Shown here: positions 789-34,643 of the stretch, piece after piece
Layout: each line of letters starts with the position of its first letter
How positions within the stretch are numbered: the first letter of the stretch is position 1
Virus record (IMG/VR): IMGVR_UViG_3300032307_000646
Coordinates: 9,369-73,368 of that record
Source of the DNA: a virus
Length of the DNA stretch: 64,000 bases
Strand: one strand, 5' to 3'
Program-made: the position numbers and the translations under genes
The notes under the pieces: model-generated
Seen by the model: the letters and a program-made list of their open reading frames with translations, nothing else
What the model was told of the DNA's origin: nothing
The model's database searches: none

Positions 789-1248
789 TTGGGTTCAGTT
801 TAAATTCTAGGATATACTTTGATTGAAACACACCCTTGCAGCATGTACCACAAGCGGATGTTCTAGTTGGTTTGCGGTGTCTTTTATGTGTACGACCACA
901 GCCATTGCATACAGCAACATACTTTGACTCGGGGGTAACTGTATTCTCTGATGTATAGCAACGCTTTCCATCACAGCCAATCTCTAGTGCCTTTGAACGC
1001 CACACCCAATCGTGTCCATGTCCACCACCAACAAGCGCGTGGGCAATCTCGTGTAGTATTGTATTCTTAACCCTTGCTTCATCGTTGATTGATACCAACG
1101 CCTTTGACAAGGATATCTTACGATACCTATGATTACAGCAACCAAACCTACGCTTTGCGTTATCAAACTCAAAACGCCATCCCTTTGAGGTGAGGTCGTG
1201 CTTGCTCATTAAAATCTTTGCTAGTTCTTGTGCTCTGTTTAAATCCAT
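781..1248 (-). CDS. SprT-like zinc metalloprotease
   Basis: HEIAH (HExxH), downstream HGH, C-terminal CxxC...CxxC zinc ribbon. Confidence 0.85.
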   Translation of the reverse strand: MDLNRAQELAKILMSKHDLTSKGWRFEFDNAKRRFGCCNHRYRKISLSKALVSINDEARVKNTILHEIAHALVGGGHGHDWVWRSKALEIGCDGKRCYTSENTVTPESKYVAVCNGCGRTHKRHRKPTRTSACGTCCKGVFQSKYILEFKLNPNA

Positions 1249-1318
1249 GTCTAATTGTTTTGTTATGCAATATTAAACATAAAAAAGTTCTCGTGCAAAT
1301 TTATTTACACTTTTTTGC

Positions 1319-1350
1319 AAAAAAAAATGGGGAACCTTTCGGAACCCCAT
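1319..1350 (-). terminator. intrinsic terminator
   Basis: Minus strand ATGGGGTTCCGAAAGGTTCCCCAT followed by a T-run. Confidence 0.75.
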
Positions 1351-1373
1351 CTTAATAACGTAACAGTTACCTA

Positions 1374-1523
1374 TTACTTTGCAGTATCCGCAGATACTGT
1401 ATCAACAACACAGGTATCAGATACCATAGTGGTATCAGTTGTAACCGTAGTTGTTTCGGTCGTGGTTTCGGTTGAGCAAGAAGCCATCATGACTACTAAG
1501 CCCAGGATAAGAAGTTTTTTCAT
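1374..1523 (-). CDS. small Thr-rich lipoprotein, 49 aa (not in ORF track)
   Basis: MKKLLILGLVVMMASC-STETTTETTT...; lipobox-like Cys; ATG 4 nt after TACTTTTG. Confidence 0.75.
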   Translation of the reverse strand: MKKLLILGLVVMMASCSTETTTETTTVTTDTTMVSDTCVVDTVSADTAK

Positions 1524-1651
1524 GCTACAAAAGTAAGCATGCATCCTAGTATTGTCAAGGGGTTCAGAAAAAAAATTAAAAAAACTTTGTAAAAAAGTTG
1601 CGTGGTAAATTCTTTTACATTATCTTTACACCATAATCAAAAACCACTTAT

Positions 1652-1999
1652 ATGACAAAAGAACAAGTTATTAGCAAGGTGAATGAATCGGCGGGTTCAT
1701 TGTTCACCAAGGAAGATGTAATCAGATTGATTGAGAGCATCGAAGGTACAACCAAAATCGACTTTGAGGAGTTGGCGAACCGCCTTGAGTCAATCGTTGA
1801 TGATGCCGACAACGATGGGATTGAAGTTAATTCAAGACGATGTGAGTTCAGCATCTGCAACGGGAATGAAATCGAGATTGAGGACGTTCACTTTGAAACC
1901 GAAGAGTGGAAGAGCAATATCAACCACGATATCCGTCAGTTGATTGAGGCCACCGAAAGAGGAGAGGCTTGTCAGTTAGAAGAGGAGACCGCGGAATAA
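1652..1999 (+). CDS. acidic hypothetical early protein
   Basis: 115-aa ORF between a promoter and a terminator. Confidence 0.8.
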   Translation: MTKEQVISKVNESAGSLFTKEDVIRLIESIEGTTKIDFEELANRLESIVDDADNDGIEVNSRRCEFSICNGNEIEIEDVHFETEEWKSNINHDIRQLIEATERGEACQLEEETAE

Positions 2000-2005
2000 T
2001 TAATC

Positions 2006-2032
2006 GGGGGAAAGAAATTTCCCCCTTTTTTT
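2006..2032 (+). terminator. intrinsic terminator (similar ones near 4477, 6413, 6841, 7828, 9145, 9923, 12462, 13549, 14197, 15545, 16400, 16883, 17245, 18199)
   Basis: GGGGGAAA-GAAA-TTTCCCCC followed by T7; most others are GC stems, often with GAAA loops, plus T-runs. Confidence 0.85.
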
Positions 2033-2092
2033 ATAAAATAATTTGGTCAGTAACTTTTTTACACTTATATTTGTATCATAAATCAATTAGAC

Positions 2093-2608
2093 ATGAGAAA
2101 TTTATTTACAGAAGAAGAGTTATCAATTAACATAGCTCGCAGACAAGAAAACAAAATCGCTTTGACGATCAGTTCGGACTATTCGGGTTCAAGCCGTAAG
2201 AGTGAACTATATGTCAACGAGGAAAGATTGGCAACCATGTTGGAATCTTTTTGGAAGGGTATCAAAACCAAGAAACTATTGTTGGCGAATGTATCGTTCA
2301 GCGAGATTGATTGGTACGATGATATGTGCGATGTGTATGAGACACCAAGCATTACCATTAAGAGAGGTTTGAAGAAGGCGAAGGTAAGCCACCAAGAGCA
2401 TGGTTCAATACCAAAGGATTGGTCGGTTGACTTGTTTTGTGTATTCGCAGACACCACAACCAATACACCAATACTTGAAGTGGTTAAGAGCGCGTTGGGT
2501 GGTTTCTTTGATGCGGAGTTTGAAAAGAAGTTTATTAAGGAACTTAAACCATTCTTGCAGAAGAAGGAGAATTACATTAATGTTCATTCAGCGAAATACC
2601 AATACTAA
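2093..2608 (+). CDS. hypothetical early protein
   Basis: 171-aa ORF after a promoter. Confidence 0.8.
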   Translation: MRNLFTEEELSINIARRQENKIALTISSDYSGSSRKSELYVNEERLATMLESFWKGIKTKKLLLANVSFSEIDWYDDMCDVYETPSITIKRGLKKAKVSHQEHGSIPKDWSVDLFCVFADTTTNTPILEVVKSALGGFFDAEFEKKFIKELKPFLQKKENYINVHSAKYQY

Positions 2609-2609
2609 T

Positions 2610-2840
2610 ATGGCAAGGTTTATATTAGATGTGGCAAACTTAGATTCCAAAGGTATTGCAGAGGTATTAGATGTGATTGAGAGAGACCCCTTTTTAGCTA
2701 AAGGGGTCACCTCTATCCGATGTATTGACGAGACCAATAATAACCAATTCTATTCTTGGGACACTGGCACCACACCAATGATGAACGCTTTGAGTGAGAA
2801 GCAAATTGAGGAAGATAAAAAAGTTCTTTCAAAATATTAA
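2610..2840 (+). CDS. hypothetical early protein (start revised to MARFILDV)
   Basis: ATG immediately after the previous stop codon. Confidence 0.7.
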   Translation: MARFILDVANLDSKGIAEVLDVIERDPFLAKGVTSIRCIDETNNNQFYSWDTGTTPMMNALSEKQIEEDKKVLSKY

Positions 2841-2882
2841 AATAAATTTGGTTGGTAAAGTTTTTTATATTACATTTGTATT

Positions 2883-3128
2883 ATGGAACAAACAAAGTTA
2901 AAGTATACGGAGCAAATCAAAGACATTTTGGTTGCCATGGCAATGGACGATACCTTGCCATTAGATATGACCACACTCGATTCAAGTGTATTCGACAAGG
3001 TTGTTGAACCATTGATAAGTGCATTGAATACTTTGCGTGAGGACGCGGAAATGGCATTGAATGGAGAATGGGATAGAACGGACGGGGGTTTTGAAGCACA
3101 AATCATTTTAATTGACGATGTACTATGA
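2883..3128 (+). CDS. hypothetical early protein, probably leaderless
   Basis: ATG 4 nt after the -7 box. Confidence 0.75.
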   Translation: MEQTKLKYTEQIKDILVAMAMDDTLPLDMTTLDSSVFDKVVEPLISALNTLREDAEMALNGEWDRTDGGFEAQIILIDDVL

Positions 3129-3373
3129 GTAAGGCAATGTTCTATCAAGCGTGTTTAGTACCTATTGAGGGTGATGTTATTAAGCATGTTTACCCACACC
3201 TTAAGGAAGGTCAGATGACTTTGGAAGAAAGATTACCCAATGACGCGTTGTGTCCCGAGTGTGATGATTCCAGGAGAGAGTGGTATCTTTTACCCATGGA
3301 GAGTATCCAGGTGAAGGAAGGTGGTAAACCTTATTGTGAATGTATGAATTGTGGATACACCACACATTTATAA
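3125..3373 (+). CDS. small zinc-finger protein
   Basis: CPEC...CMNC; ATGA overlap with the upstream gene. Confidence 0.7.
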   Translation: MSKAMFYQACLVPIEGDVIKHVYPHLKEGQMTLEERLPNDALCPECDDSRREWYLLPMESIQVKEGGKPYCECMNCGYTTHL

Positions 3374-3414
3374 AAAAATTTGGTCAGTAACTTTTTTATG
3401 TTTACATTTGTAAT

Positions 3415-3714
3415 ATGAATAAAGCGACATTAGATTATTGGCACCCAAGAAACGAAACGGTTGTAACTGAAAGCGGTTTTCGTTACCTTGATAGAAATTC
3501 GGTCATCACCATAACAAAAGATATTGAAGACGAGACCGAGATAGGATTGTTTGAGCAGTTCTACAAACTTAATAATAGTTTGCGGTATTGCAATGGCTCA
3601 TACTATACGTTCCAAGATAAACAATGGGATAAAAAGTATAAAGAGTGGTTGCAGTCGGATGACTACAAAAAGAAAAGTTTTAATCTTTACTACGGAAACG
3701 GAGTTGTTGATTAA
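3415..3714 (+). CDS. hypothetical early protein, probably leaderless
   Basis: ATG 4 nt after the -7 box. Confidence 0.75.
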   Translation: MNKATLDYWHPRNETVVTESGFRYLDRNSVITITKDIEDETEIGLFEQFYKLNNSLRYCNGSYYTFQDKQWDKKYKEWLQSDDYKKKSFNLYYGNGVVD

Positions 3715-3754
3715 AAAATTTGGTCAGTAAACTTTTTTACATTACATTTGTATT

Positions 3755-3973
3755 ATGGTAACGGTCTATTACAAAAACGAGAAAGGTGAAAACAAGATTG
3801 TACTTGTGAGAACCTATAAAGAAGTTAAGCGTAGAATGAATGCTTTCATGCTCAATAGTTTTGATGAGAATGTAAGTGTGTTCAGACGCAGACGCGGACA
3901 ATGGGGTGAGTGGTACGAGAATTGGGCAAAGGTAGGTAGTAAGTGTCAAATCATTAAAGAAGGGTGGCAATGA
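3755..3973 (+). CDS. hypothetical early protein, probably leaderless
   Basis: ATG 4 nt after the -7 box. Confidence 0.75.
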   Translation: MVTVYYKNEKGENKIVLVRTYKEVKRRMNAFMLNSFDENVSVFRRRRGQWGEWYENWAKVGSKCQIIKEGWQ

Positions 3974-30733: not shown

Positions 30734-31632
30734 TACATTATATAGTTAGTTAATTCATATTTACCAGAAGGCATTCTGTATAATGAAATTTGTAACATTT
30801 TTTTAAGCGGTTTACCATCTTTTAATAACTCAACATGGTACTGAACAGTTTTTTCATAAGCAACATGTTCTGGGGTGATACTTTCCCAGTTAACCGTAAA
30901 ACCTTTATGGTTAGCGTATTCTTCGGCAGATTCTAAAGCACCAGCTTGTGTATCAAAATAATTTTCTTGTTGGAATCCTCTACCTTCGAAAACTTTACCA
31001 TCTTTACCAGCTCTCATAGCCATCCAAGAACCTTCCTCTTCTTCAAGCTCTTTTTGAAGTTCGTCCAGACTTTCTAATTTAAGATCACCCAAAGCGTCCA
31101 TTGTGTCGTCATAACCAGGCATTTTATAATCTGGTTCTTCTTCTGGTTCTCCGAACATATCATCAATTAGTGATTGGGCCATTGATTTTAAATCAATTTT
31201 ATTATTACCACGACCCATATTCCAAACACTCCCTAAAGCGTTCTCAAGGTAATCAACCCTATTATCGGAGCCAACCTTCGCATCTTCCATAGCAAGATCC
31301 CAAGATTCCTCAACGTCTTCATTTTTCTCAAAAGTTTCTGGGTCTCTATCTTGTTTATTAGCGGTTGCGTAATAAACCTCTTCACCCTTTTTATCACCGT
31401 ATTGGTCTTTGAATTTATTAAGAACTTCAGTGTTCTCATCAGTTTCCTCTTCTCTCATTGAACCAACAATATCCGATGGAGATAACTCTTCTATCGCGTC
31501 TTTACCGTAATTGATTTCATAATCATCATCCTCTGGGGACATGTTTGTAATTTTACCGCTTGGGCTAACATGATTTACACCCATCATTTCTTGTATTCTA
31601 GAAAGTTCTTCGTTTAAACTGGATTTTTTCAT
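30733..31632 (-). CDS. acidic protein with LNEELSRIQEMMG peptide
   Basis: Shared motif; QYG..KGEEVYYATANK. Confidence 0.8.
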   Translation of the reverse strand: MKKSSLNEELSRIQEMMGVNHVSPSGKITNMSPEDDDYEINYGKDAIEELSPSDIVGSMREEETDENTEVLNKFKDQYGDKKGEEVYYATANKQDRDPETFEKNEDVEESWDLAMEDAKVGSDNRVDYLENALGSVWNMGRGNNKIDLKSMAQSLIDDMFGEPEEEPDYKMPGYDDTMDALGDLKLESLDELQKELEEEEGSWMAMRAGKDGKVFEGRGFQQENYFDTQAGALESAEEYANHKGFTVNWESITPEHVAYEKTVQYHVELLKDGKPLKKMLQISLYRMPSGKYELTNYIM

Positions 31633-31699
31633 AAAAACATTTATTTATAAATACTTTTATAAAAAGAAAAAAGACTATATTGGTAATTAAAATGTGAAG

Positions 31700-31773
31700 T
31701 CGTCCTAGCTGGACTCGAACCAGCGGCCTTCTGCGTATCAGGCAGACGCTCTAACCAACTGAGCTACAGGACG
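31700..31773 (-). tRNA. tRNA-Ile(GAT)
   Basis: Cloverleaf; anticodon loop CT-GAT-AC; GGTTCGAGTCC. Confidence 0.92.
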
Positions 31774-31833
31774 ATAAATTAGATTTTGCACAATAAACAT
31801 TGTTCGTTTATCGTAGCAAAAACGGGTTTATTG

Positions 31834-31907
31834 TACCTTCAGAGAGACTCGAACTCCCAACCTTTTCGTTCGTAGCGAAACGCTCTAATCCATTGAGCTA
31901 TGAAGGT
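31834..31907 (-). tRNA. tRNA-Arg(ACG)
   Basis: TTTCG-CTACGAA-CGAAA. Confidence 0.92.
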
Positions 31908-31912
31908 AAATA

Positions 31913-32026
31913 ATAGGCCATTGTTACAATATCTCTCACCCACTTTCTTGGCAGGGTATCCATCATGGGTTCCGTTAACTGATATCTATTTTATAACCCC
32001 TGACGGAACAAACGGGGTAACCTATT
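31913..32026 (-). ncRNA. candidate structured RNA with a possible pseudoknot
   Basis: AATAGG/CCTATT closing stem; ACCCC/GGGGT hairpin whose loop GTTCCGT complements downstream ACGGAAC. Confidence 0.4.
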
Positions 32027-32104
32027 TGGGGTGACTGATGGGACTCGAACCCACGACCTCTTGAATCACAATCAAGCACTCTAACCAACTGAGCTACAGA
32101 AACC
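32027..32104 (-). tRNA. tRNA-His(GTG)
   Basis: CTTGA-TTGTGAT-TCAAG; G-1, C73 and encoded CCA; two acceptor-stem mismatches. Confidence 0.88.
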
Positions 32105-32109
32105 ATATA

Positions 32110-32184
32110 TGGTAGCGAGAGGGAATTTCGAAATCCCGACCTTTCGGATATGAGCCGAATGCTCTTCCTCTGAGCTATCTCGCC
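32110..32184 (-). tRNA. tRNA-Met(CAT) (elongator-like; Ile2 not excluded)
   Basis: TTCGG-CTCATAT-CCGAA; encoded CCA. Confidence 0.88.
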
Positions 32185-32213
32185 ATTTTCTCGCCAATAT
32201 GGCGAGATATTTG

Positions 32214-32284
32214 TTGTCCCTTCAGGACTCGAACCTGAATTCTCTGGCTCAAAACCAGATGTGCTGCCATTACACCAAGGGACA
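32214..32284 (-). tRNA. tRNA-Gln(TTG)
   Basis: TCTGG-TTTTGAG-CCAGA. Confidence 0.92.
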
Positions 32285-32287
32285 ATA

Positions 32288-32363
32288 TGGTGGAGCTAAT
32301 GGGACTCGAACCCACATCCTCTTCCTTGCAAGGGAAGCGCTCAGCCAATTGAGCTATAACCCC
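32288..32363 (-). tRNA. tRNA-Ala(TGC)
   Basis: CTTCC-CTTGCAA-GGAAG; G3:U70; encoded CCA. Confidence 0.93.
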
Positions 32364-32364
32364 A

Positions 32365-32826
32365 TTAATTTTGTCGAAAAGTTATCTGCCTTAAACAATG
32401 GTCTAGCAGATACTGTTCAACATTTGGTATTTTCCTCAAGAAGTCATACTCATATGAATAACAAAGTATTTCTTCTCTTGGTGATTCTTGGACACCTCTA
32501 TATCTAAGATAAAGGTGTAAAGATTCATGTACAATAACAGCCGCGAGATTGTTTAGGGATTTTGCCCTAGCGTCTGTTGACGATATTACTATACTACCCT
32601 TTGCGTCTTTAGAACCCTCATTTGTTGAGTAGTTACCAGACCAAAATGTTATTTTATTACAAACACGTAAAACGAGTTTATAAGCGGTGGTATCTGTTTG
32701 TCTGATAATTGTTAAAGCACTATCAGCTCTCAGATCCCAACCATCCCCAGCTTTATCGATTACAATTTGTGATTTACAAATCGTTGTGGATAAAACCATT
32801 ACGATCATTAATATTAGTTTCCTCAT
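32365..32826 (-). CDS. secreted HExxH metalloprotease-like protein inside the tRNA array (start revised to MRKLILM)
   Basis: Signal peptide; VIVHESLH...EE; TATTTAT upstream. Confidence 0.7.
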   Translation of the reverse strand: MRKLILMIVMVLSTTICKSQIVIDKAGDGWDLRADSALTIIRQTDTTAYKLVLRVCNKITFWSGNYSTNEGSKDAKGSIVISSTDARAKSLNNLAAVIVHESLHLYLRYRGVQESPREEILCYSYEYDFLRKIPNVEQYLLDHCLRQITFRQN

Positions 32827-32838
32827 ATTAATAAATAG

Positions 32839-32920
32839 TGCCAGCAGGTGGACTCGAACCACCGAACCCGTAAGGGAGCAGATTTACAGTCTGCCGCAAT
32901 TGCCGCTATGCGATACTGGC
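32839..32920 (-). tRNA. tRNA-Tyr(GTA)
   Basis: GCAGA-CTGTAAA-TCTGC; long variable arm. Confidence 0.93.
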
Positions 32921-32924
32921 AAGT

Positions 32925-33059
32925 GAGGTAAGAGGAAGATGGTTCAGTGGACATCCTCTTTTACGATCGGCATTACTTGGGTGAATACCTGCAAACTCCG
33001 ATCACACCAGTCAGTATTCACTCTCGAACTATTGATGTGATCATTCCCCGATCAACCTT
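32925..33059 (-). ncRNA. candidate multi-stem structured RNA
   Basis: GATCGG/CCGATC, GTGAATAC/GTATTCAC and AAGAGGA/TCCTCTT pairings. Confidence 0.45.
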
Positions 33060-33061
33060 TG

Positions 33062-33134
33062 TACACCCTATAGGACTCGAACCTATGACATCTGCCATGT
33101 AAGGGCAGCGCTCTACCAACTGAGCTAAAGGTGC
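33062..33134 (-). tRNA. tRNA-Val(TAC)
   Basis: CTGCC-CTTACAT-GGCAG. Confidence 0.92.
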
Positions 33135-33236
33135 ATGTGTCCCTTCGTAGGTACTTGCCGTTTCTTAAGTCGACACTTTCCCCGTTGCGTGTTTTATTTA
33201 AGTGTACTTCCCTACTGGGACTTGAAGCCAACACAT
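33135..33236 (-). ncRNA. candidate long bulged-hairpin RNA
   Basis: Nested ATGTGT/ACACAT, CTTC/GAAG, GTAGG/CCTAC, CTTAA/TTAAG and ACAC/GTGT. Confidence 0.45.
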
Positions 33237-33238
33237 TG

Positions 33239-33319
33239 TACCCAAAGAGAGACTCGAACTCTCACGCCTTTCAGCCACGGTTTCTAAGACCGTTATGTCT
33301 ACCATTCCATCACTCGGGC
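33239..33319 (-). tRNA. tRNA-Leu(TAG)
   Basis: ACGGT-CTTAGAA-ACCGT; long variable arm. Confidence 0.92.
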
Positions 33320-33326
33320 ATTTTAG

Positions 33327-33397
33327 CACGGATACAAGGATTCGAACCCTGAACTGTGGTTTTGGAGACCATTATGATACCATTTCACCATACCCGT
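33327..33397 (-). tRNA. tRNA-Trp(CCA)
   Basis: TGGT-CTCCAAA-ACCA. Confidence 0.9.
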
Positions 33398-33406
33398 GTA
33401 TATTTG

Positions 33407-33476
33407 AGTATAAGGTTGGAATCGAACCAACACCGTTGGTTTTGCAGACCAACTGACCACCACGATCAACTTATAC
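33407..33476 (-). tRNA. tRNA-Cys(GCA)
   Basis: TTGGT-CTGCAAA-ACCAA; U73; short D-loop. Confidence 0.87.
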
Positions 33477-33481
33477 GTTTG

Positions 33482-33555
33482 TGTCCCCGACAGGACTCGA
33501 ACCTGTGACTCCCTCATTAAAAGTGAGGTGCTCTAACCAACTGAGCTACGAAGAC
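33482..33555 (-). tRNA. tRNA-Lys(TTT)
   Basis: CCTCA-CTTTTAA-TGAGG. Confidence 0.93.
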
Positions 33556-33561
33556 ATTGTG

Positions 33562-33637
33562 TCAGGATAGCTGGATTCGAACCAGCGATCCCCCGCGTCC
33601 AAGGCGGGTAGGGACGACCTGACTCCCCCATATCCTG
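33562..33637 (-). tRNA. tRNA-Pro(TGG)
   Basis: CCCGC-CTTGGAC-GCGGG; C1:G72, A73. Confidence 0.9.
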
Positions 33638-33644
33638 AATTAAG

Positions 33645-33719
33645 TAGCGTAGACAGGACTCGAACCTGCACTATGTCCTCATCCCAAATGAGGCGGCCTA
33701 CCAATTGGCCAACTACGCT
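33645..33719 (-). tRNA. tRNA-Pro(TGG), second divergent copy
   Basis: CCTCA-TTTGGGA-TGAGG; A1:U72. Confidence 0.85.
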
Positions 33720-33732
33720 ATTTTAAAATTAC

Positions 33733-33749
33733 CAATACGTCAAAGAACT
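33733..33749 (-). promoter_or_regulatory. boxA-like antitermination element
   Basis: AGTTCTTTGACGTATTG between the attenuator and the first tRNA; resembles rRNA-operon boxA. Confidence 0.55.
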
Positions 33750-33751
33750 GC

Positions 33752-33782
33752 AAAAAAAAACCCTGAACTTGTTGGTTCAGGG
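33752..33782 (-). terminator. attenuator terminator upstream of the tRNA array
   Basis: CCCTGAAC-CAACAA-GTTCAGGG followed by T9. Confidence 0.9.
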
Positions 33783-33819
33783 CTTCGTTTTTCTTAGTTT
33801 TAGTTTTATTTCTACAACA

Positions 33820-33918
33820 TCATGAAAATACTTGGTCTGAACCCGATACGGTACGAGGATACCACTGGCACACTGCCATCGGTTTAATCACTGCGATATG
33901 TAGGTTCATATTTTTCAT
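33820..33918 (-). CDS. tRNA-array leader peptide MKNMNLHIAVIKPMAVCQWYPRTVSGSDQVFS (not in ORF track)
   Basis: Hand-translated; lies between promoter and terminator; codons mirror the tRNA set. Confidence 0.8.
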   Translation of the reverse strand: MKNMNLHIAVIKPMAVCQWYPRTVSGSDQVFS

Positions 33919-33945
33919 TTTAATGTTATTGTTAAATAATTAGTA

Positions 33946-33976
33946 CAAAATTAAGCAAAGTTTTCTAAAAAACAAA
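33946..33976 (-). promoter_or_regulatory. sigma-A-type promoter of the leader/tRNA operon
   Basis: TTTG-N19-TAATTTTG. Confidence 0.75.
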
Positions 33977-34003
33977 CTTTTTACGATTTTTTTTTAAAAA
34001 AAA

Positions 34004-34387
34004 TTATCTTTTACCAGTTTTTGTTGGGTTAACACCTTGATTTCTATCAATATAGATCCAGTCACAAGATGTTAAATCAAATTGATTTAAGTGATCTAAG
34101 ACAACATCTATATCATATTCTTTGCAAGAATATATATCAAACTGCACTAAAGATGGGGTCTCGTTATCCCAAACGTGTATCGATGCGTGTGATGTTGCTA
34201 ATGTTATCGTACCCGTAACACCTTCGTTACCTGGCTCGTTTACATATACGGATGTTGGGCCAGCCACAACTACCATACCAACTTTATCAACTAACTCTTT
34301 TAACCAAGTGTTAAGCGATTCTTCTGTTCTTGGTGGGTTATTTACAAACCCCCTAACAATTAAATGTACGTGATTAGGTTTAAACAT
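34004..34387 (-). CDS. speD: S-adenosylmethionine decarboxylase-like pyruvoyl proenzyme
   Basis: GVTG...LATSHASIHVW...QFDIYSCK. Confidence 0.8.
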   Translation of the reverse strand: MFKPNHVHLIVRGFVNNPPRTEESLNTWLKELVDKVGMVVVAGPTSVYVNEPGNEGVTGTITLATSHASIHVWDNETPSLVQFDIYSCKEYDIDVVLDHLNQFDLTSCDWIYIDRNQGVNPTKTGKR

Positions 34388-34391
34388 GGTT

Positions 34392-34643
34392 TTAAAATTC
34401 TTCTTCTAAATCATCATTATCATCATCATCGAAGGTTCTACCATCGTAGTAACCGTCATCTGTGTCAGATATTATTGTTTCTATTTCATATAACACATCA
34501 CTTATTCGTTCAATAACGTTATCGGTTACATCATCCCTAAAATTCTCAGGATCAATCATCTCTAACTTATTTTCGGCATCTTCCTTGAGATCAATTATTT
34601 GTCTCTGTAAGTCTTTAAGATAATTTAAGGCTAATTTGCTCAT
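34392..34643 (-). CDS. small acidic protein (start probably MSKLAL)
   Basis: ORF with TATTTAT upstream. Confidence 0.7.
   Translation of the reverse strand: MSKLALNYLKDLQRQIIDLKEDAENKLEMIDPENFRDDVTDNVIERISDVLYEIETIISDTDDGYYDGRTFDDDDNDDLEEEF

What the first reader, a model, noticed from the sequence alone, without database searches (positions are those of the whole stretch)
31700..33976. Leader-peptide attenuator whose codons mirror the phage tRNA array: a candidate tRNA-depletion sensor
SEEN (minus strand): promoter TTTG-N19-TAATTTTG (33976-33946), then a 32-codon ORF (33918-33820), then a strong terminator (33782-33752), then 14 tRNAs. Codons 1-22 are ATG AAA AAT ATG AAC CTA CAT ATC GCA GTG ATT AAA CCG ATG GCA GTG TGC CAG TGG TAT CCT CGT. 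The array encodes Met, Lys(TTT), Leu(TAG), His, Ile(GAT), Ala(TGC), Val(TAC), Pro(TGG) x2, Cys, Gln(TTG), Trp, Tyr and Arg(ACG). All 13 amino acids occur in these 22 codons, with the matching codon box where there is a choice (CTA for Leu-TAG, CGT for Arg-ACG, ATC/ATT for Ile-GAT). The only extra residue is Asn. Residues without an array tRNA (T, S, G, D, F) appear only after codon 22, and Glu never appears. KNOWN: trp/his/pheST-type attenuators use runs of codons for one or a few amino acids; host anticodon nucleases (PrrC, RloC, VapC, PARIS AriB) cleave tRNAs, and phage tRNAs can compensate. INFERENCE: this acts as an OR gate in which stalling at any of 13 codon types causes read-through and on-demand supply of replacement tRNAs. 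I do not know of a described equivalent.
Basis: partly seen in the sequence, partly recalled or inferred. Interest (0 to 1): 0.97.

Follow-up and report, generated by a model that had tools for sequence, protein, structure and literature searches.

The report
Codon-matched leader attenuator gating phage tRNAs
This freshwater giant-phage fragment puts its 14 tRNA genes behind a tiny test gene, spelled with the amino acids those tRNAs carry and wired to a switchable transcription stop, so the phage probably makes its own tRNAs only when ribosomes read those codons slowly.

Summary
A Bacteroidota-type promoter, a 32-codon ORF, a strong intrinsic terminator and 14 tRNAs lie in series on the minus strand. 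Codons 1-22 hold all 13 amino acids of the array plus only Asn.

This is rare. None of 12,827 real-protein windows matched as well, and 20 of 22 codons are readable by array tRNAs against a 39% background.

Relatives decide the case. I collected 36 distinct leader-terminator units from viral and metagenome contigs.
- All keep an ORF whose indels preserve the frame.
- All keep a site near the ORF's 3' end that pairs with the terminator's 5' arm. The pairing sequences differ between lineages, and compensatory changes are seen.
- In most lineages the terminator ends 11-17 nt before the first tRNA.

Leader codons follow array content:
- L124 lost tRNA-Ala and gained tRNA-Ser(gct); its leader lost both GCA codons and gained AGT.
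- Arrays with or without tRNA-Ile have leaders with or without Ile codons.
- Ile(tat) goes with ATA codons.
- Arrays covering all 20 amino acids have leaders containing all 20.

Exceptions exist (L249, G007, G010).

My reading is a trp-type ribosome-mediated attenuator acting on tRNA genes. Nothing was tested at the bench. I found no published account. This scan has reported the same kind of element on other DNA.

The parts
33946..33976 (-). Bacteroidota-type promoter of the leader: -33 TTTG (33976-33973), a 19-nt spacer, and -7 TAATTTTG (33953-33946).
   Evidence: Read from sequence. The TAnnTTTG element is kept in all 8 distinct close-relative sequences; the -33 element varies between TTTG and CTTG. 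The consensus itself is recalled from the literature on Bacteroides and Flavobacterium promoters, not tested here.
33820..33918 (-). Leader ORF of 32 codons plus TGA: MKNMNLHIAVIKPMAVCQWYPRTVSGSDQVFS.
   Evidence: It is conserved in 8 distinct window-type ORF sequences, all 99 nt long, with 7, 8 and 14 variable sites at codon positions 1, 2 and 3.
33853..33918 (-). Sensing zone, codons 1-22. It holds codons for all 13 amino acids and all 13 anticodon species of the array, plus two Asn codons.
   Evidence: The zone's 3' limit follows from a ribosome footprint reaching segment 2; this is an inference with an uncertainty of one codon.
33902..33908 (-). Segment 1 (TGAACCT, codons 4-6). It can pair with segment 2 and so act as an anti-antiterminator.
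   Evidence: It is invariant in all window-type leaders. The pairing energy alone is not significant (z -1.2).
33837..33843 (-). Segment 2 (GGTTCAG, codons 26-28). It is complementary to CTGAACC in the terminator's 5' arm, giving the antiterminator. It ends 14 nt before the stop codon.
   Evidence: It is the best duplex site of the arm within the ORF, at -11.8 kcal/mol, but 10 of 100 shuffled ORFs do as well. It is invariant while flanking codons vary.
33752..33786 (-). Intrinsic terminator: 5' arm GAAGCCCTGAAC (33786-33775; segment 3 for the antiterminator is 33780-33774), loop CAACAA, 3' arm GTTCAGGG followed by a T-run (33768-33752).
   Evidence: (hairpin -17.0 kcal/mol). It is the only strong terminator between the leader and the last tRNA.
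33739..33748 (-). GTTCTTTGAC motif between the terminator and the first tRNA (boxA-like; function unknown).
   Evidence: GTTCTTTGAC or GTTCATTGAC sits in the same place in G010, L138 and L210. The resemblance to boxA is a recalled lead, not tested.
31699..33719 (-). Array of 14 tRNA genes in this order: Pro(tgg) twice, Lys(ttt), Cys(gca), Trp(cca), Leu(tag), Val(tac), Tyr(gta), Ala(tgc), Gln(ttg), Met(cat), His(gtg), Arg(acg), Ile(gat). A 165-aa ORF lies inside it at 32862-32365.

Best explanation
This is a ribosome-mediated (trp/his-type) transcription attenuator that gates a phage tRNA operon. Its leader peptide is a panel of roughly one codon for each tRNA species of the operon.

Proposed mechanism:
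1. Transcription starts at the Bacteroidota-type promoter, and a ribosome translates the 32-codon leader.
2. If decoding is fast, the ribosome runs over segment 2 (GGTTCAG) to the stop codon 14 nt beyond it. Segment 3 is then left to pair with segment 4. The terminator forms and RNA polymerase stops 41 nt before the first tRNA.
3. If the ribosome stalls at a hungry codon in the sensing zone, segment 1 is covered or the 1:2 pairing is prevented. Segment 2 is then free when segment 3 emerges, and the 2:3 antiterminator forms. Polymerase reads into the 14 tRNA genes.
4. The new tRNAs speed up decoding of the same codons, which closes a negative feedback loop.

Shown computationally: the anatomy; conservation of the frame; conservation and covariation of the alternative pairings; and the match of codons to array content, including its co-variation across lineages.

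Inferred: that the ORF is translated; that the terminator works; the direction of the switch; which codons are effective; and the physiological trigger (host tRNA decline late in infection, codon-demand mismatch, or defence nucleases).
For: (1) Anatomy in the window.

(2) Composition.
- Amino-acid level: 13 of 13 array amino acids plus only Asn in 22 codons, P = 1.8e-4, and 0 of 12,827 real-protein windows fit as well.
- Codon level: 20 of 22 codons readable against a 39% background, 13 of 13 anticodons represented, and 3 of 10 readable in the rest of the leader.

(3) The same architecture appears in 36 distinct units out of 39 collected.
- In 36 of 36, the best pairing site of the terminator's 5' arm within the ORF lies near the ORF's 3' end.
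- In 27 of 36 it ends exactly 14 nt before the stop.
- The segment-2 sequences differ between lineages: GGTTCAG, CAGTTAGAGG, GTTAGGG, GTCGGGGT, GAGTCAGGGT, GACTGGAGTAGGT and CGAGATGGGT.
- In 26 of 36, at most 5 of 100 shuffled ORFs pair as well.

(4) Covariation on alignment A1 of 23 MKTLTLH/MRTLTH-type units.
- Helix 2:3 is 94.6% paired. Three pairs show changes on both sides (10 cells), and 0 of 500 shuffles reach this. Slid controls give 24-57%.
- Helix 1:2 is 98.1% paired, with an AU-to-GC double change in 4 sequences. The segment-1 change there is a synonymous TTA-to-TTG.

(5) Evidence for translation. Gap runs inside the ORF are multiples of 3 in 91 of 97 cases, against 1 of 35 between the stop and the terminator. 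L133 has the Ala and Val codons in swapped order, so composition is kept rather than sequence.

(6) There is no room for a separate promoter. The T-run lies 11-17 nt before the first tRNA in G001, G002, G003, G004, G005, G008 and G009. The leader terminator is the only strong terminator inside the arrays, except for one internal terminator in G002.

(7) Codon tracking across lineages.
- L124's array lost Ala and gained Ser(gct). Its leader lost both GCA codons, gained AGT, and moved the Arg codon from position 22 to 9. The result is again 13 of 13 plus Asn. Five random replacements achieve this in 125 of 200,000 trials.
- G002 and G006 have tRNA-Ile and Ser(act), and their leaders have ATT twice and AGT. 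G001 has neither the tRNAs nor the codons.
- The short group lacks tRNA-Lys, and its codon 2 is AGA (its arrays hold Arg(tct)) instead of AAA.
- L138's array is Pro, Pro, Ile(tat), His, Arg(acg), Leu(tag). In its leader 9 of 14 zone codons are readable, including ATA twice. None of the 15 remaining codons is readable. Background is 0.11 and P = 2.8e-6.
- All 15 distinct leaders of 50-53 codons contain all 20 amino acids. Only 0.6-0.9% of real-protein windows of that length do. The five long-leader arrays read to their end (G003, G004, G005, G008, G009) carry all 20; G010 is the exception given below.
- The leader's own array is the best Jaccard match for 6 of 7 leader types.

(8) Constrained folds of the nascent window transcript. 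With no ribosome, the 1:2 pairing forms. With a ribosome at codon 5 or 10, the 7-bp 2:3 pairing forms. With a ribosome at the stop codon, 1:2 forms again.

(9) Weak support from RNA libraries. Contigs from two freshwater metatranscriptome runs of different studies bridge the leader ORF and the terminator: X2 record 14 (33566-33962) runs on into the first two tRNAs, and X4 record 29 (33721-33894) stops just before the first tRNA.
Against: - There is no experimental evidence of any kind. The metatranscriptome pieces are assembled contigs, which cannot show 3' ends or strand, and DNA carry-over is not excluded.
- In the window's own lineage the antiterminator is only 7 bp. It is not significant by energy: 10 of 100 shuffles do as well. 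The 1:2 pairing has z -1.2. Support for this lineage therefore rests on position, invariance and analogy with the other lineages.
- In constrained folds of the window leader, stalls at codons 15 and 20 let 1:2 re-form. In that case the terminator would still form, unless a ribosome inside the loop forbids the pairing. So the OR gate over all 22 codons is not established.
- In the other lineages the 2:3 pairing forms by default in the truncated transcript. The untranslated state may therefore read through rather than terminate.
- Exceptions to tracking:
  - L249 carries the window-type leader (two GCA codons, no AGY), but its array lacks tRNA-Ala and has Ser(gct).
  - G007 has an AGC codon without a Ser(gct/act) tRNA.
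  - G010's leader holds all 20 amino acids, but the 8 kb fetched lacks Asn, Val and Lys tRNAs.
  - L158 and L160 lack one amino acid each (E and Q).
  - L138's own array is not its best Jaccard match.
- Two Asn codons sit in the window's zone without a tRNA-Asn in the array.
- Between the terminator and the first tRNA of the window there is a TTTG-N19-TAATTTTA promoter-like match. Some terminator-independent transcription of the array cannot be excluded here.
- The lineages are related, so the number of independent co-variation events is small, roughly five.
Confidence: 0.75

Rival explanations
1. Generic translation-speed sensor. The unit is an attenuator, but the leader only samples many different codons. 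It gauges overall ribosome speed or amino-acid supply, with no selection to match the particular tRNAs downstream.
For: The 50-53-codon leaders hold all 20 amino acids whatever follows. G010's array lacks Asn, Val and Lys tRNAs in the stretch fetched. The whole window leader holds 19 of 20 amino-acid types. L249 keeps Ala codons without a tRNA-Ala.
Against: In the window, L124, the short group and L138, non-array amino acids are excluded from the zone upstream of segment 2 and appear only after it. L124's five replacements re-fit its changed array; chance achieves this in 125 of 200,000 trials. There are also codon-box matches: ATA with Ile(tat), AGT with Ser(gct/act), AGA with Arg(tct), and CTA/CTT with Leu(tag).
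Confidence: 0.13
2. Independent small transcription unit. The promoter, 32-codon ORF and terminator make a separate small mRNA or sRNA, and the tRNAs are transcribed from their own promoter after the terminator. The match in composition would then be a coincidence.
For: A TTTG-N19-TAATTTTA match lies between the T-run and the first tRNA of the window. The leader region folds into a long hairpin, z -5.6 with the terminator included.
Against: The downstream promoter-like match is absent in L124. There is no room for it where the T-run lies 11-17 nt from the first tRNA. All 21 recognisable leader homologues in the metagenome scan that have enough downstream sequence are followed by tRNAs, and 2 more are cut off by contig ends. 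Coincidence is contradicted by the statistics and by the co-variation.
Confidence: 0.05
3. Functional micro-protein. The 32-aa product itself acts, for example on tRNA processing or the ribosome, and is conserved for that reason.
For: The ORF and its frame are conserved, and the N-terminus MK(N/T)(L/M)(N/T)LH is shared across lineages.
Against: Between lineages the peptides share only the N-terminus, which overlaps segment 1, and they range from 29 to 53 residues. Residue order is permuted while composition is kept (L133). The conserved C-terminal codons coincide with RNA segment 2.
Confidence: 0.03

Closest known systems
Multivalent leader-peptide attenuators of enterobacterial amino-acid operons (thr leader: Thr + Ile; ilvGMEDA and ilvBN leaders: Ile/Leu/Val; also trpL, hisL, leuL, pheL). 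Named from established knowledge.
   Same: A short translated leader, an intrinsic terminator, mutually exclusive 1:2, 2:3 and 3:4 pairings, and regulatory codons placed upstream of segment 2. Read-through is expected when the ribosome stalls.
   Different: The regulated genes are tRNA genes, not biosynthetic enzymes. The leader has no run of one to three codon types. It carries about one codon for each of 13 (elsewhere 5 to 20) tRNA species. It is phage-encoded. There is no sequence or Rfam relationship: the best match, Thr_leader, scores 22.8 bits against a gathering score of 55 and covers only the terminator.
pheST (pheM leader) attenuator of E. coli. Named from established knowledge.
   Same: Attenuation by a leader peptide controls a component of the translation apparatus that handles the same tRNA that is being sensed.
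   Different: pheST senses one amino acid and regulates a synthetase. Here many tRNA species are sensed, and the tRNAs themselves are the output.
T-box riboswitches (named from established knowledge)
   Same: A terminator/antiterminator choice in a 5' leader that reports tRNA status.
   Different: T-boxes bind an uncharged tRNA directly and need no translation. No T-box or other Rfam leader family matches this region at E up to 1. Here the sensor is a translating ribosome.
Anabaena sp. PCC 7120 trn operon, a long tRNA array induced by translational stress (PMC8421152, passages read; PMC10272220, abstract and outline read)
   Same: A supernumerary, horizontally mobile tRNA array that is kept silent and switched on when translation is impaired.
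   Different: Control there is at the promoter, through direct repeats bound by the repressor TrcR. The words attenuat-, leader and terminator do not occur in PMC8421152 (abstract). No codon-matched leader is described.
Bacteroid-trp RNA motif, a predicted Trp leader-peptide attenuator in Bacteroidota (recalled, not checked beyond the Rfam scan)
   Same: It would show that leader-peptide attenuation is used in the likely host phylum.
   Different: It regulates trp genes with Trp codons. It did not match this region in the Rfam scan at E up to 1.

Membership tests
Ribosome-mediated (leader-peptide) transcription attenuator | A short ORF in the 5' leader that is translated | tested here: met
   The ORF is present in 36 of 36 distinct units. 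Indels inside it are multiples of 3 in 91 of 97 gap runs, against 1 of 35 after the stop. Translation itself is not shown.
Ribosome-mediated (leader-peptide) transcription attenuator | An intrinsic terminator between the leader ORF and the regulated genes | tested here: met
   The window has a 12-bp stem followed by nine T. Hairpins across the units range from -14 to -20 kcal/mol. It is the only strong terminator within the arrays, apart from one internal terminator in G002.
Ribosome-mediated (leader-peptide) transcription attenuator | An antiterminator: an upstream segment that pairs with the terminator's 5' arm | tested here: met
   A site of this kind is found in 36 of 36 units, and its position is fixed (14 nt before the stop) in 27 of 36. 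Helix 2:3 on A1 is 94.6% paired with 3 pairs changed on both sides, and 0 of 500 shuffles reach this. In the window's own lineage it is only 7 bp and not significant by energy (10 of 100 shuffles).
Ribosome-mediated (leader-peptide) transcription attenuator | An anti-antiterminator (1:2 pairing) that sequesters segment 2 when the leader is not being stalled on | tested here: inconclusive
   On A1 it is supported: 98.1% paired, with one AU-to-GC double change in 4 sequences. In the window it is 6-7 bp with z -1.2. No convincing segment 1 is seen in L138 or L210.
Ribosome-mediated (leader-peptide) transcription attenuator | Regulatory codons that correspond to the regulated pathway, placed upstream of segment 2 | tested here: met
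   Window: 20 of 22 zone codons readable against 3 of 10 in the rest. L124: 20 of 22. Short group: 17-18 of 18. L138: 9 of 14 against 0 of 15.
Ribosome-mediated (leader-peptide) transcription attenuator | Read-through rises when the cognate charged tRNA is scarce | not testable with these tools
   This needs reporter assays, Term-seq or in vitro coupled transcription-translation.
Classical amino-acid operon leaders (Rfam Thr_leader, His_leader, Trp_leader and others) | A match to the family covariance model, with biosynthetic genes downstream | tested here: not met
   The best match is Thr_leader at 22.8 bits against a gathering score of 55, and it covers the terminator only. The downstream genes are tRNAs.
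T-box riboswitch | A T-box covariance-model match (specifier loop, T-box bulge) | tested here: not met
   No T-box match at E up to 1 in 31400-34400.
TrcR-type repressed tRNA L-array (Anabaena) | [quoted passage not shown] | not tested
   I did not search the window for such repeats or for a TrcR homologue. The features are taken from PMC8421152 passages and the PMC10272220 abstract.

The most novel reading that the evidence does not exclude
The leader is a per-isoacceptor tRNA-pool sensor that co-evolves with the array: an OR gate with one input codon per phage tRNA. Loss of any single host tRNA species switches on the phage's replacement set and then shuts it off again by feedback. The loss could come from an anticodon nuclease of a defence system, from phage-induced decay of host tRNAs, or from a mismatch between codon demand and supply. 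This would be the first attenuator whose output is the molecule it senses, and a built-in counter-defence sensor shared by a large group of uncultured Bacteroidota giant phages.
Probability: 0.3. Interest if true: 0.95.

Novelty: new variant of a known kind. Interest (0 to 1): 0.88.

Why it matters
Phage tRNA genes are usually discussed as constitutive helpers for codon usage, or as decoys and replacements against tRNA-cleaving defences. How they are regulated is almost unknown.

If this reading is right, a large group of uncultured freshwater giant phages measures decoding speed codon by codon and makes tRNAs on demand. They would do this with the oldest known RNA switch logic (trp-type attenuation), but apply it to tRNA genes and use a one-of-each codon panel.

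That would have three consequences.
- It gives a directly testable model of when and why phages express tRNAs.
- It offers a natural design for a multi-input translational-stress sensor.
- It provides a sequence signature that can be used to annotate tRNA operons and to predict which tRNAs a phage considers limiting in its host. The signature is a leader ORF with the composition of the array, a segment complementary to the terminator arm about 14 nt before the stop, and a terminator abutting the first tRNA.

In six searches of the open-access library I found no account of leader-peptide attenuation of tRNA genes. Subscription-only papers and supplements were not searchable.

Tried and rejected
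- blastn of 33700-34400 against the phage GenBank collection found no match.
- tblastn of the leader peptide against the first 87 loci gave short CGWYSRT-like hits about 200 nt after the AdoMetDC-like gene in many loci. They lie out of frame inside a peptidoglycan-binding-type gene, so they are chance matches.
- The nhmmer search in the same script printed no hits. I did not follow it up.
- My pattern for the leader's 3' end was badly designed and found only 2 stretches.
- L120 is a chance pattern match: a hydrophobic 38-aa ORF with no tRNAs.
- Of the 16 stretches, I examined 7: 4 contigs not seen before and 3 others. The rest are contigs already held.
- Of the 118 metagenome pattern loci:
  - 21 have a short ORF followed by tRNAs.
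  - 2 are leader homologues cut off by the contig end.
  - 75 are other short ORFs, 14 are long ORFs, and 6 run off the contig.
  - I inspected 12 of the 75; none had a terminator or tRNA behind it, and I treat them all as chance.
- Weak Rfam hits (ohsC_RNA 26.2 bits, Thr_leader 22.8 bits) cover only the terminator hairpin and are far below the gathering scores.
- The TTTG-N19-TAATTTTA match after the terminator was considered as the array's real promoter. I rejected it as the general route because it is not conserved (L124) and cannot fit in the other lineages. It is not excluded for the window itself.
- RNA runs: none of the 21 listed runs holds half of the sampled words. In the four runs laid, the flanks 34044-34400 and 31600-31693 had no cover. 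Contigs cannot show absence, ends or levels, so I draw nothing from that.
- The structure, complex, protein-atlas and homologous-protein tools were not used, because the finding is an RNA/codon feature.

Full report
**What is in the window**

The window is part of a 73-kb IMG/VR virus record that CheckV rates 25% complete, so it is a fragment of a much larger phage.

On the minus strand the following lie in series:
- an S-adenosylmethionine-decarboxylase-like gene at 34387-34004 (Pfam AdoMet_dc, E 3.5e-12);
- TTTG (33976-33973), 19 nt, then TAATTTTG (33953-33946);
- a 32-codon ORF at 33918-33820;
- a 12-bp hairpin followed by nine T (33786-33752);
- 14 tRNA genes at 33719-31699, starting 41 nt after the start of the T-run.

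The ORF reads MKNMNLHIAVIKPMAVCQWYPRTVSGSDQVFS.

**Is the match more than chance?**

- Among 45,542 stop-free 22-codon windows in all six frames of the window, 7 contain all 13 array amino acids. Six of these are this ORF.
- A 14-type set that includes all 13 array types has hypergeometric P = 1.8e-4.
- None of 12,827 windows taken from the 40 long ORFs of the window fits as well.
- At codon level, 20 of the first 22 codons can be read by array anticodons. Background is 39% of codons in the phage's long ORFs (binomial 7e-7).
- Every one of the 13 anticodon species has a cognate codon in the zone.
- In the last 10 codons only 3 are readable, which is the background rate.

**Relatives**

The GenBank phage collection has nothing similar. 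IMG/VR and metagenome contigs have many relatives, reached through the two neighbouring proteins and through leader-start patterns.

I ended with 39 leader-terminator units, 36 of them distinct. They fall into these groups:
- the window type (32 codons, MKNMNLH...);
- a short type (29 codons, MRTLTH...);
- a long type (50-53 codons, MKTLTLH...);
- intermediate types of 39-42 codons;
- two outliers, L138 and L210.

All share the N-terminal codons and the layout of ORF, AT-rich spacer, terminator and tRNAs.

In the metagenome scan, every recognisable leader homologue with enough downstream sequence was followed by tRNAs (21 loci). Two more are cut off by contig ends. The remaining pattern matches are chance.

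**The ORF looks translated**

- In the alignment of 23 MKTLTLH/MRTLTH units, gap runs inside the ORF are multiples of three in 91 of 97 cases. Between the stop codon and the terminator they are so in 1 of 35.
- The 8 distinct window-type ORFs are all 99 nt long. They have 14 variable third positions against 7 first and 8 second positions.
- One variant (L133) has the Ala and Val codons in swapped order. Composition is kept, not sequence.

**The RNA switch**

- In all 36 distinct units, the best pairing site of the terminator's 5' arm within the ORF lies near the ORF's 3' end.
- In 27 units it ends exactly 14 nt before the stop codon.
- The sequences involved differ between lineages: GGTTCAG/CTGAACC in the window, GTTAGAGG/CCTCTAAC, GTTAGGG/CCCTAAC, GTCAGGG/CCCTGAC, and GAGATGGG/CCCATCTC in L210.
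- In 26 of 36 units, at most 5 of 100 shuffled ORFs pair as well.
- The 10 weaker units include the window itself and most of its type, where the helix is only 7-8 bp.
- When leaders and terminator arms are swapped between lineages, the mean duplex energy falls from -14.6 to -10.4 kcal/mol. The unit's own arm is the best or tied in 6 of 12 rows.

On alignment A1:
- The antiterminator helix is 94.6% paired. Three pairs changed on both sides (10 cells), and 0 of 500 shuffles reach this. Slid controls give 24-57%.
- A 1:2 helix between codons 3-5 and segment 2 is 98.1% paired. It has an AU-to-GC double change in four sequences.
- In those four, segment 1 changes by a synonymous TTA-to-TTG. Segment 2 changes GTT to GTC, and the terminator arm changes CTAAC to CTGAC. 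One position therefore co-varies in three segments.

The terminator's T-run lies 11-17 nt before the first tRNA in seven genomes, which leaves no room for a promoter. Between the leader and the last tRNA there is no other strong terminator, apart from one internal terminator in G002.

Constrained folds of the nascent window transcript behave as a trp-type switch for stalls early in the ORF. With no ribosome, 1:2 forms. With a ribosome at codon 5 or 10, 2:3 forms. With a ribosome at the stop, 1:2 forms. For stalls at codons 15 and 20, 1:2 re-forms in the thermodynamic model, which ignores the bulk of the ribosome. In the other lineages 2:3 is the default before segment 4 is made.

**Do leader codons follow the array?**

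In favour:
- L124/L127 are diverged window-type units. Their array lost tRNA-Ala and gained tRNA-Ser(gct). Their leader lost both GCA codons, gained AGT, and moved the Arg codon from position 22 to 9. Its first 22 codons again hold all 13 array amino acids plus only Asn. Five random replacements produce such a fit in 125 of 200,000 trials.
- In the short group, G002 and G006 have tRNA-Ile and tRNA-Ser(act), and their leaders have ATT twice and AGT. G001 has neither the tRNAs nor the codons. L111 has the same leader as G002, but its contig ends before the array.
- The short group lacks tRNA-Lys and has AGA, read by its Arg(tct), at codon 2 where the other groups have AAA. It also lacks the Ala, Tyr and Lys codons of the long leaders. 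Its two stray codons (Phe, Val) sit within four codons of segment 2.
- L138 has only Pro(tgg), Pro(agg), Ile(tat), His, Arg(acg) and Leu(tag). Its codons 6-14 are CTA CAT ATA CTT CCG ATA TCG CGA CCA. Nine of 14 zone codons are readable and none of the remaining 15 is. Background is 0.11 and P = 2.8e-6.
- All 15 distinct leaders of 50-53 codons contain all 20 amino acids. That holds for 0.6-0.9% of real-protein windows of that length. The five long-leader arrays read to their end (G003, G004, G005, G008, G009) carry tRNAs for all 20.
- The leader's own array is the best Jaccard match for 6 of 7 leader types.

Against:
- L249 combines a window-type leader with an L124-like array.
- G007 has an AGC codon without the matching tRNA.
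- G010's leader has all 20 amino acids, but no Asn, Val or Lys tRNA was found in the 8 kb fetched.
- L158 and L160 each miss one amino acid.
- The His tRNAs of G002, G006 and G007 were called only at a relaxed ARAGORN threshold.
- The lineages are related, so the independent events number about five.

**Expression**

Four freshwater metatranscriptome runs hold 20-31% of the sampled words of the region. Their assembled contigs include pieces that bridge the leader ORF and the terminator: X2 record 14 (33566-33962) continues into the first two tRNAs, and X4 record 29 (33721-33894) stops just before the first tRNA. X1 record 6 is a diverged relative. Contigs cannot show ends, strand or level, and DNA carry-over is possible. 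This is weak support at most.

**Interpretation**

The best reading (confidence 0.75) is a ribosome-mediated attenuator that gates the tRNA operon. Its leader is a codon panel matched to the operon's tRNAs.
- Fast decoding lets the ribosome cover segment 2, and the terminator forms.
- A stall leaves segment 2 free to pair with the terminator's 5' arm, and polymerase reads into the tRNA genes.
- The new tRNAs then relieve the stall.

The anatomy, conservation, covariation and codon statistics are shown by computation. Translation, termination, the direction of the switch and the trigger are inferred.

Rivals:
- a generic translation-speed sensor without tRNA-specific matching (0.13);
- an independent small transcription unit, with the match arising by chance (0.05);
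- a functional micro-protein (0.03).

**Comparison with known systems**

It works like the multivalent leader-peptide attenuators (thr, ilvGMEDA) and like pheST, but it is not a member of those families. No covariance model matches, the output is tRNA genes, and the leader has a one-of-each panel instead of codon runs.

The nearest thing in print that I could find is the tRNA array of Anabaena, which is induced by translational stress. It is controlled by the repressor TrcR at promoter repeats, not by attenuation (passages of PMC8421152, abstract and outline of PMC10272220).

Six full-text searches found no leader-peptide attenuator of tRNA genes. Supplements and subscription-only papers were not searched.

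This scan has already reported the same kind of element in other phage genomes, and in an overlapping window of this genome. Those notes are unchecked AI notes and were not used as evidence. One of them gave me the lead to the Anabaena paper.

**Verdict**

It is a new variant of a known kind of switch, of high interest, and awaits a bench test.

Noticed in passing
window 33739-33748 (-); also G010 (L117), L138, L210: A GTTCTTTGAC or GTTCATTGAC motif follows the leader terminator in four otherwise diverged lineages, just before the first tRNA. It resembles the boxA core of rRNA-operon antitermination (recalled). It could load Nus factors on polymerases that escape the attenuator, or it could be a processing site.
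   Followed up: partly
L096:205-617 and L098:2153-2565; L098:754-1126: In the short- and long-leader relatives, a GOLLD RNA (Rfam RF02032, 279-290 bits) lies about 430 nt upstream of the leader ATG. L098 also has a tmRNA gene (77.5 bits). The window has neither; an AdoMetDC-like gene sits upstream instead.
   Followed up: partly
window 33135-33237 and 32921-33060 (-): Two non-tRNA spacers inside the array (between Leu and Val, and between Val and Tyr) lie in bins that reach word depths of 1,150 to 3,900 in three of the four metatranscriptome runs laid. This is far above neighbouring bins, and the same bins include tRNA-Val. They may be stable structured RNAs. Contigs of other organisms that share tRNA-like sequence could also inflate this.
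   Followed up: no
window 32365-32862 (-): A 165-aa ORF sits inside the tRNA array on the same strand. It has a hydrophobic N-terminus and an HESLH (HExxH-like) motif and no Pfam match. It is present with tRNA-Ala in the window type and absent, together with tRNA-Ala, in L124 and L249. If co-transcribed, it would be under the attenuator.
   Followed up: partly
L075-L079, L125 (about 440 nt upstream of the first tRNA-Pro); L133: Some close relatives carry an extra tRNA-Cys(gca) and a tRNA with anticodon CTA upstream of the leader promoter, outside the attenuated unit. ARAGORN calls the CTA tRNA Pyl; it is a possible amber suppressor.
   Followed up: no
G002 = L097:3411-3543: A second strong terminator (-15.6 kcal/mol) lies 8 nt before the tRNA-Met(cat) near the end of this array, and short ORFs end just upstream. 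It may be a second, internal attenuator for the Met-Ser(tga) block.
   Followed up: no
window 34004-34387 (-): The gene directly upstream of the leader is a small S-adenosylmethionine decarboxylase homologue (Pfam PF02675, E 3.5e-12). It is conserved at 58-97% identity in 70 of the 72 related phage loci. Such a gene is unusual in a phage.
   Followed up: partly
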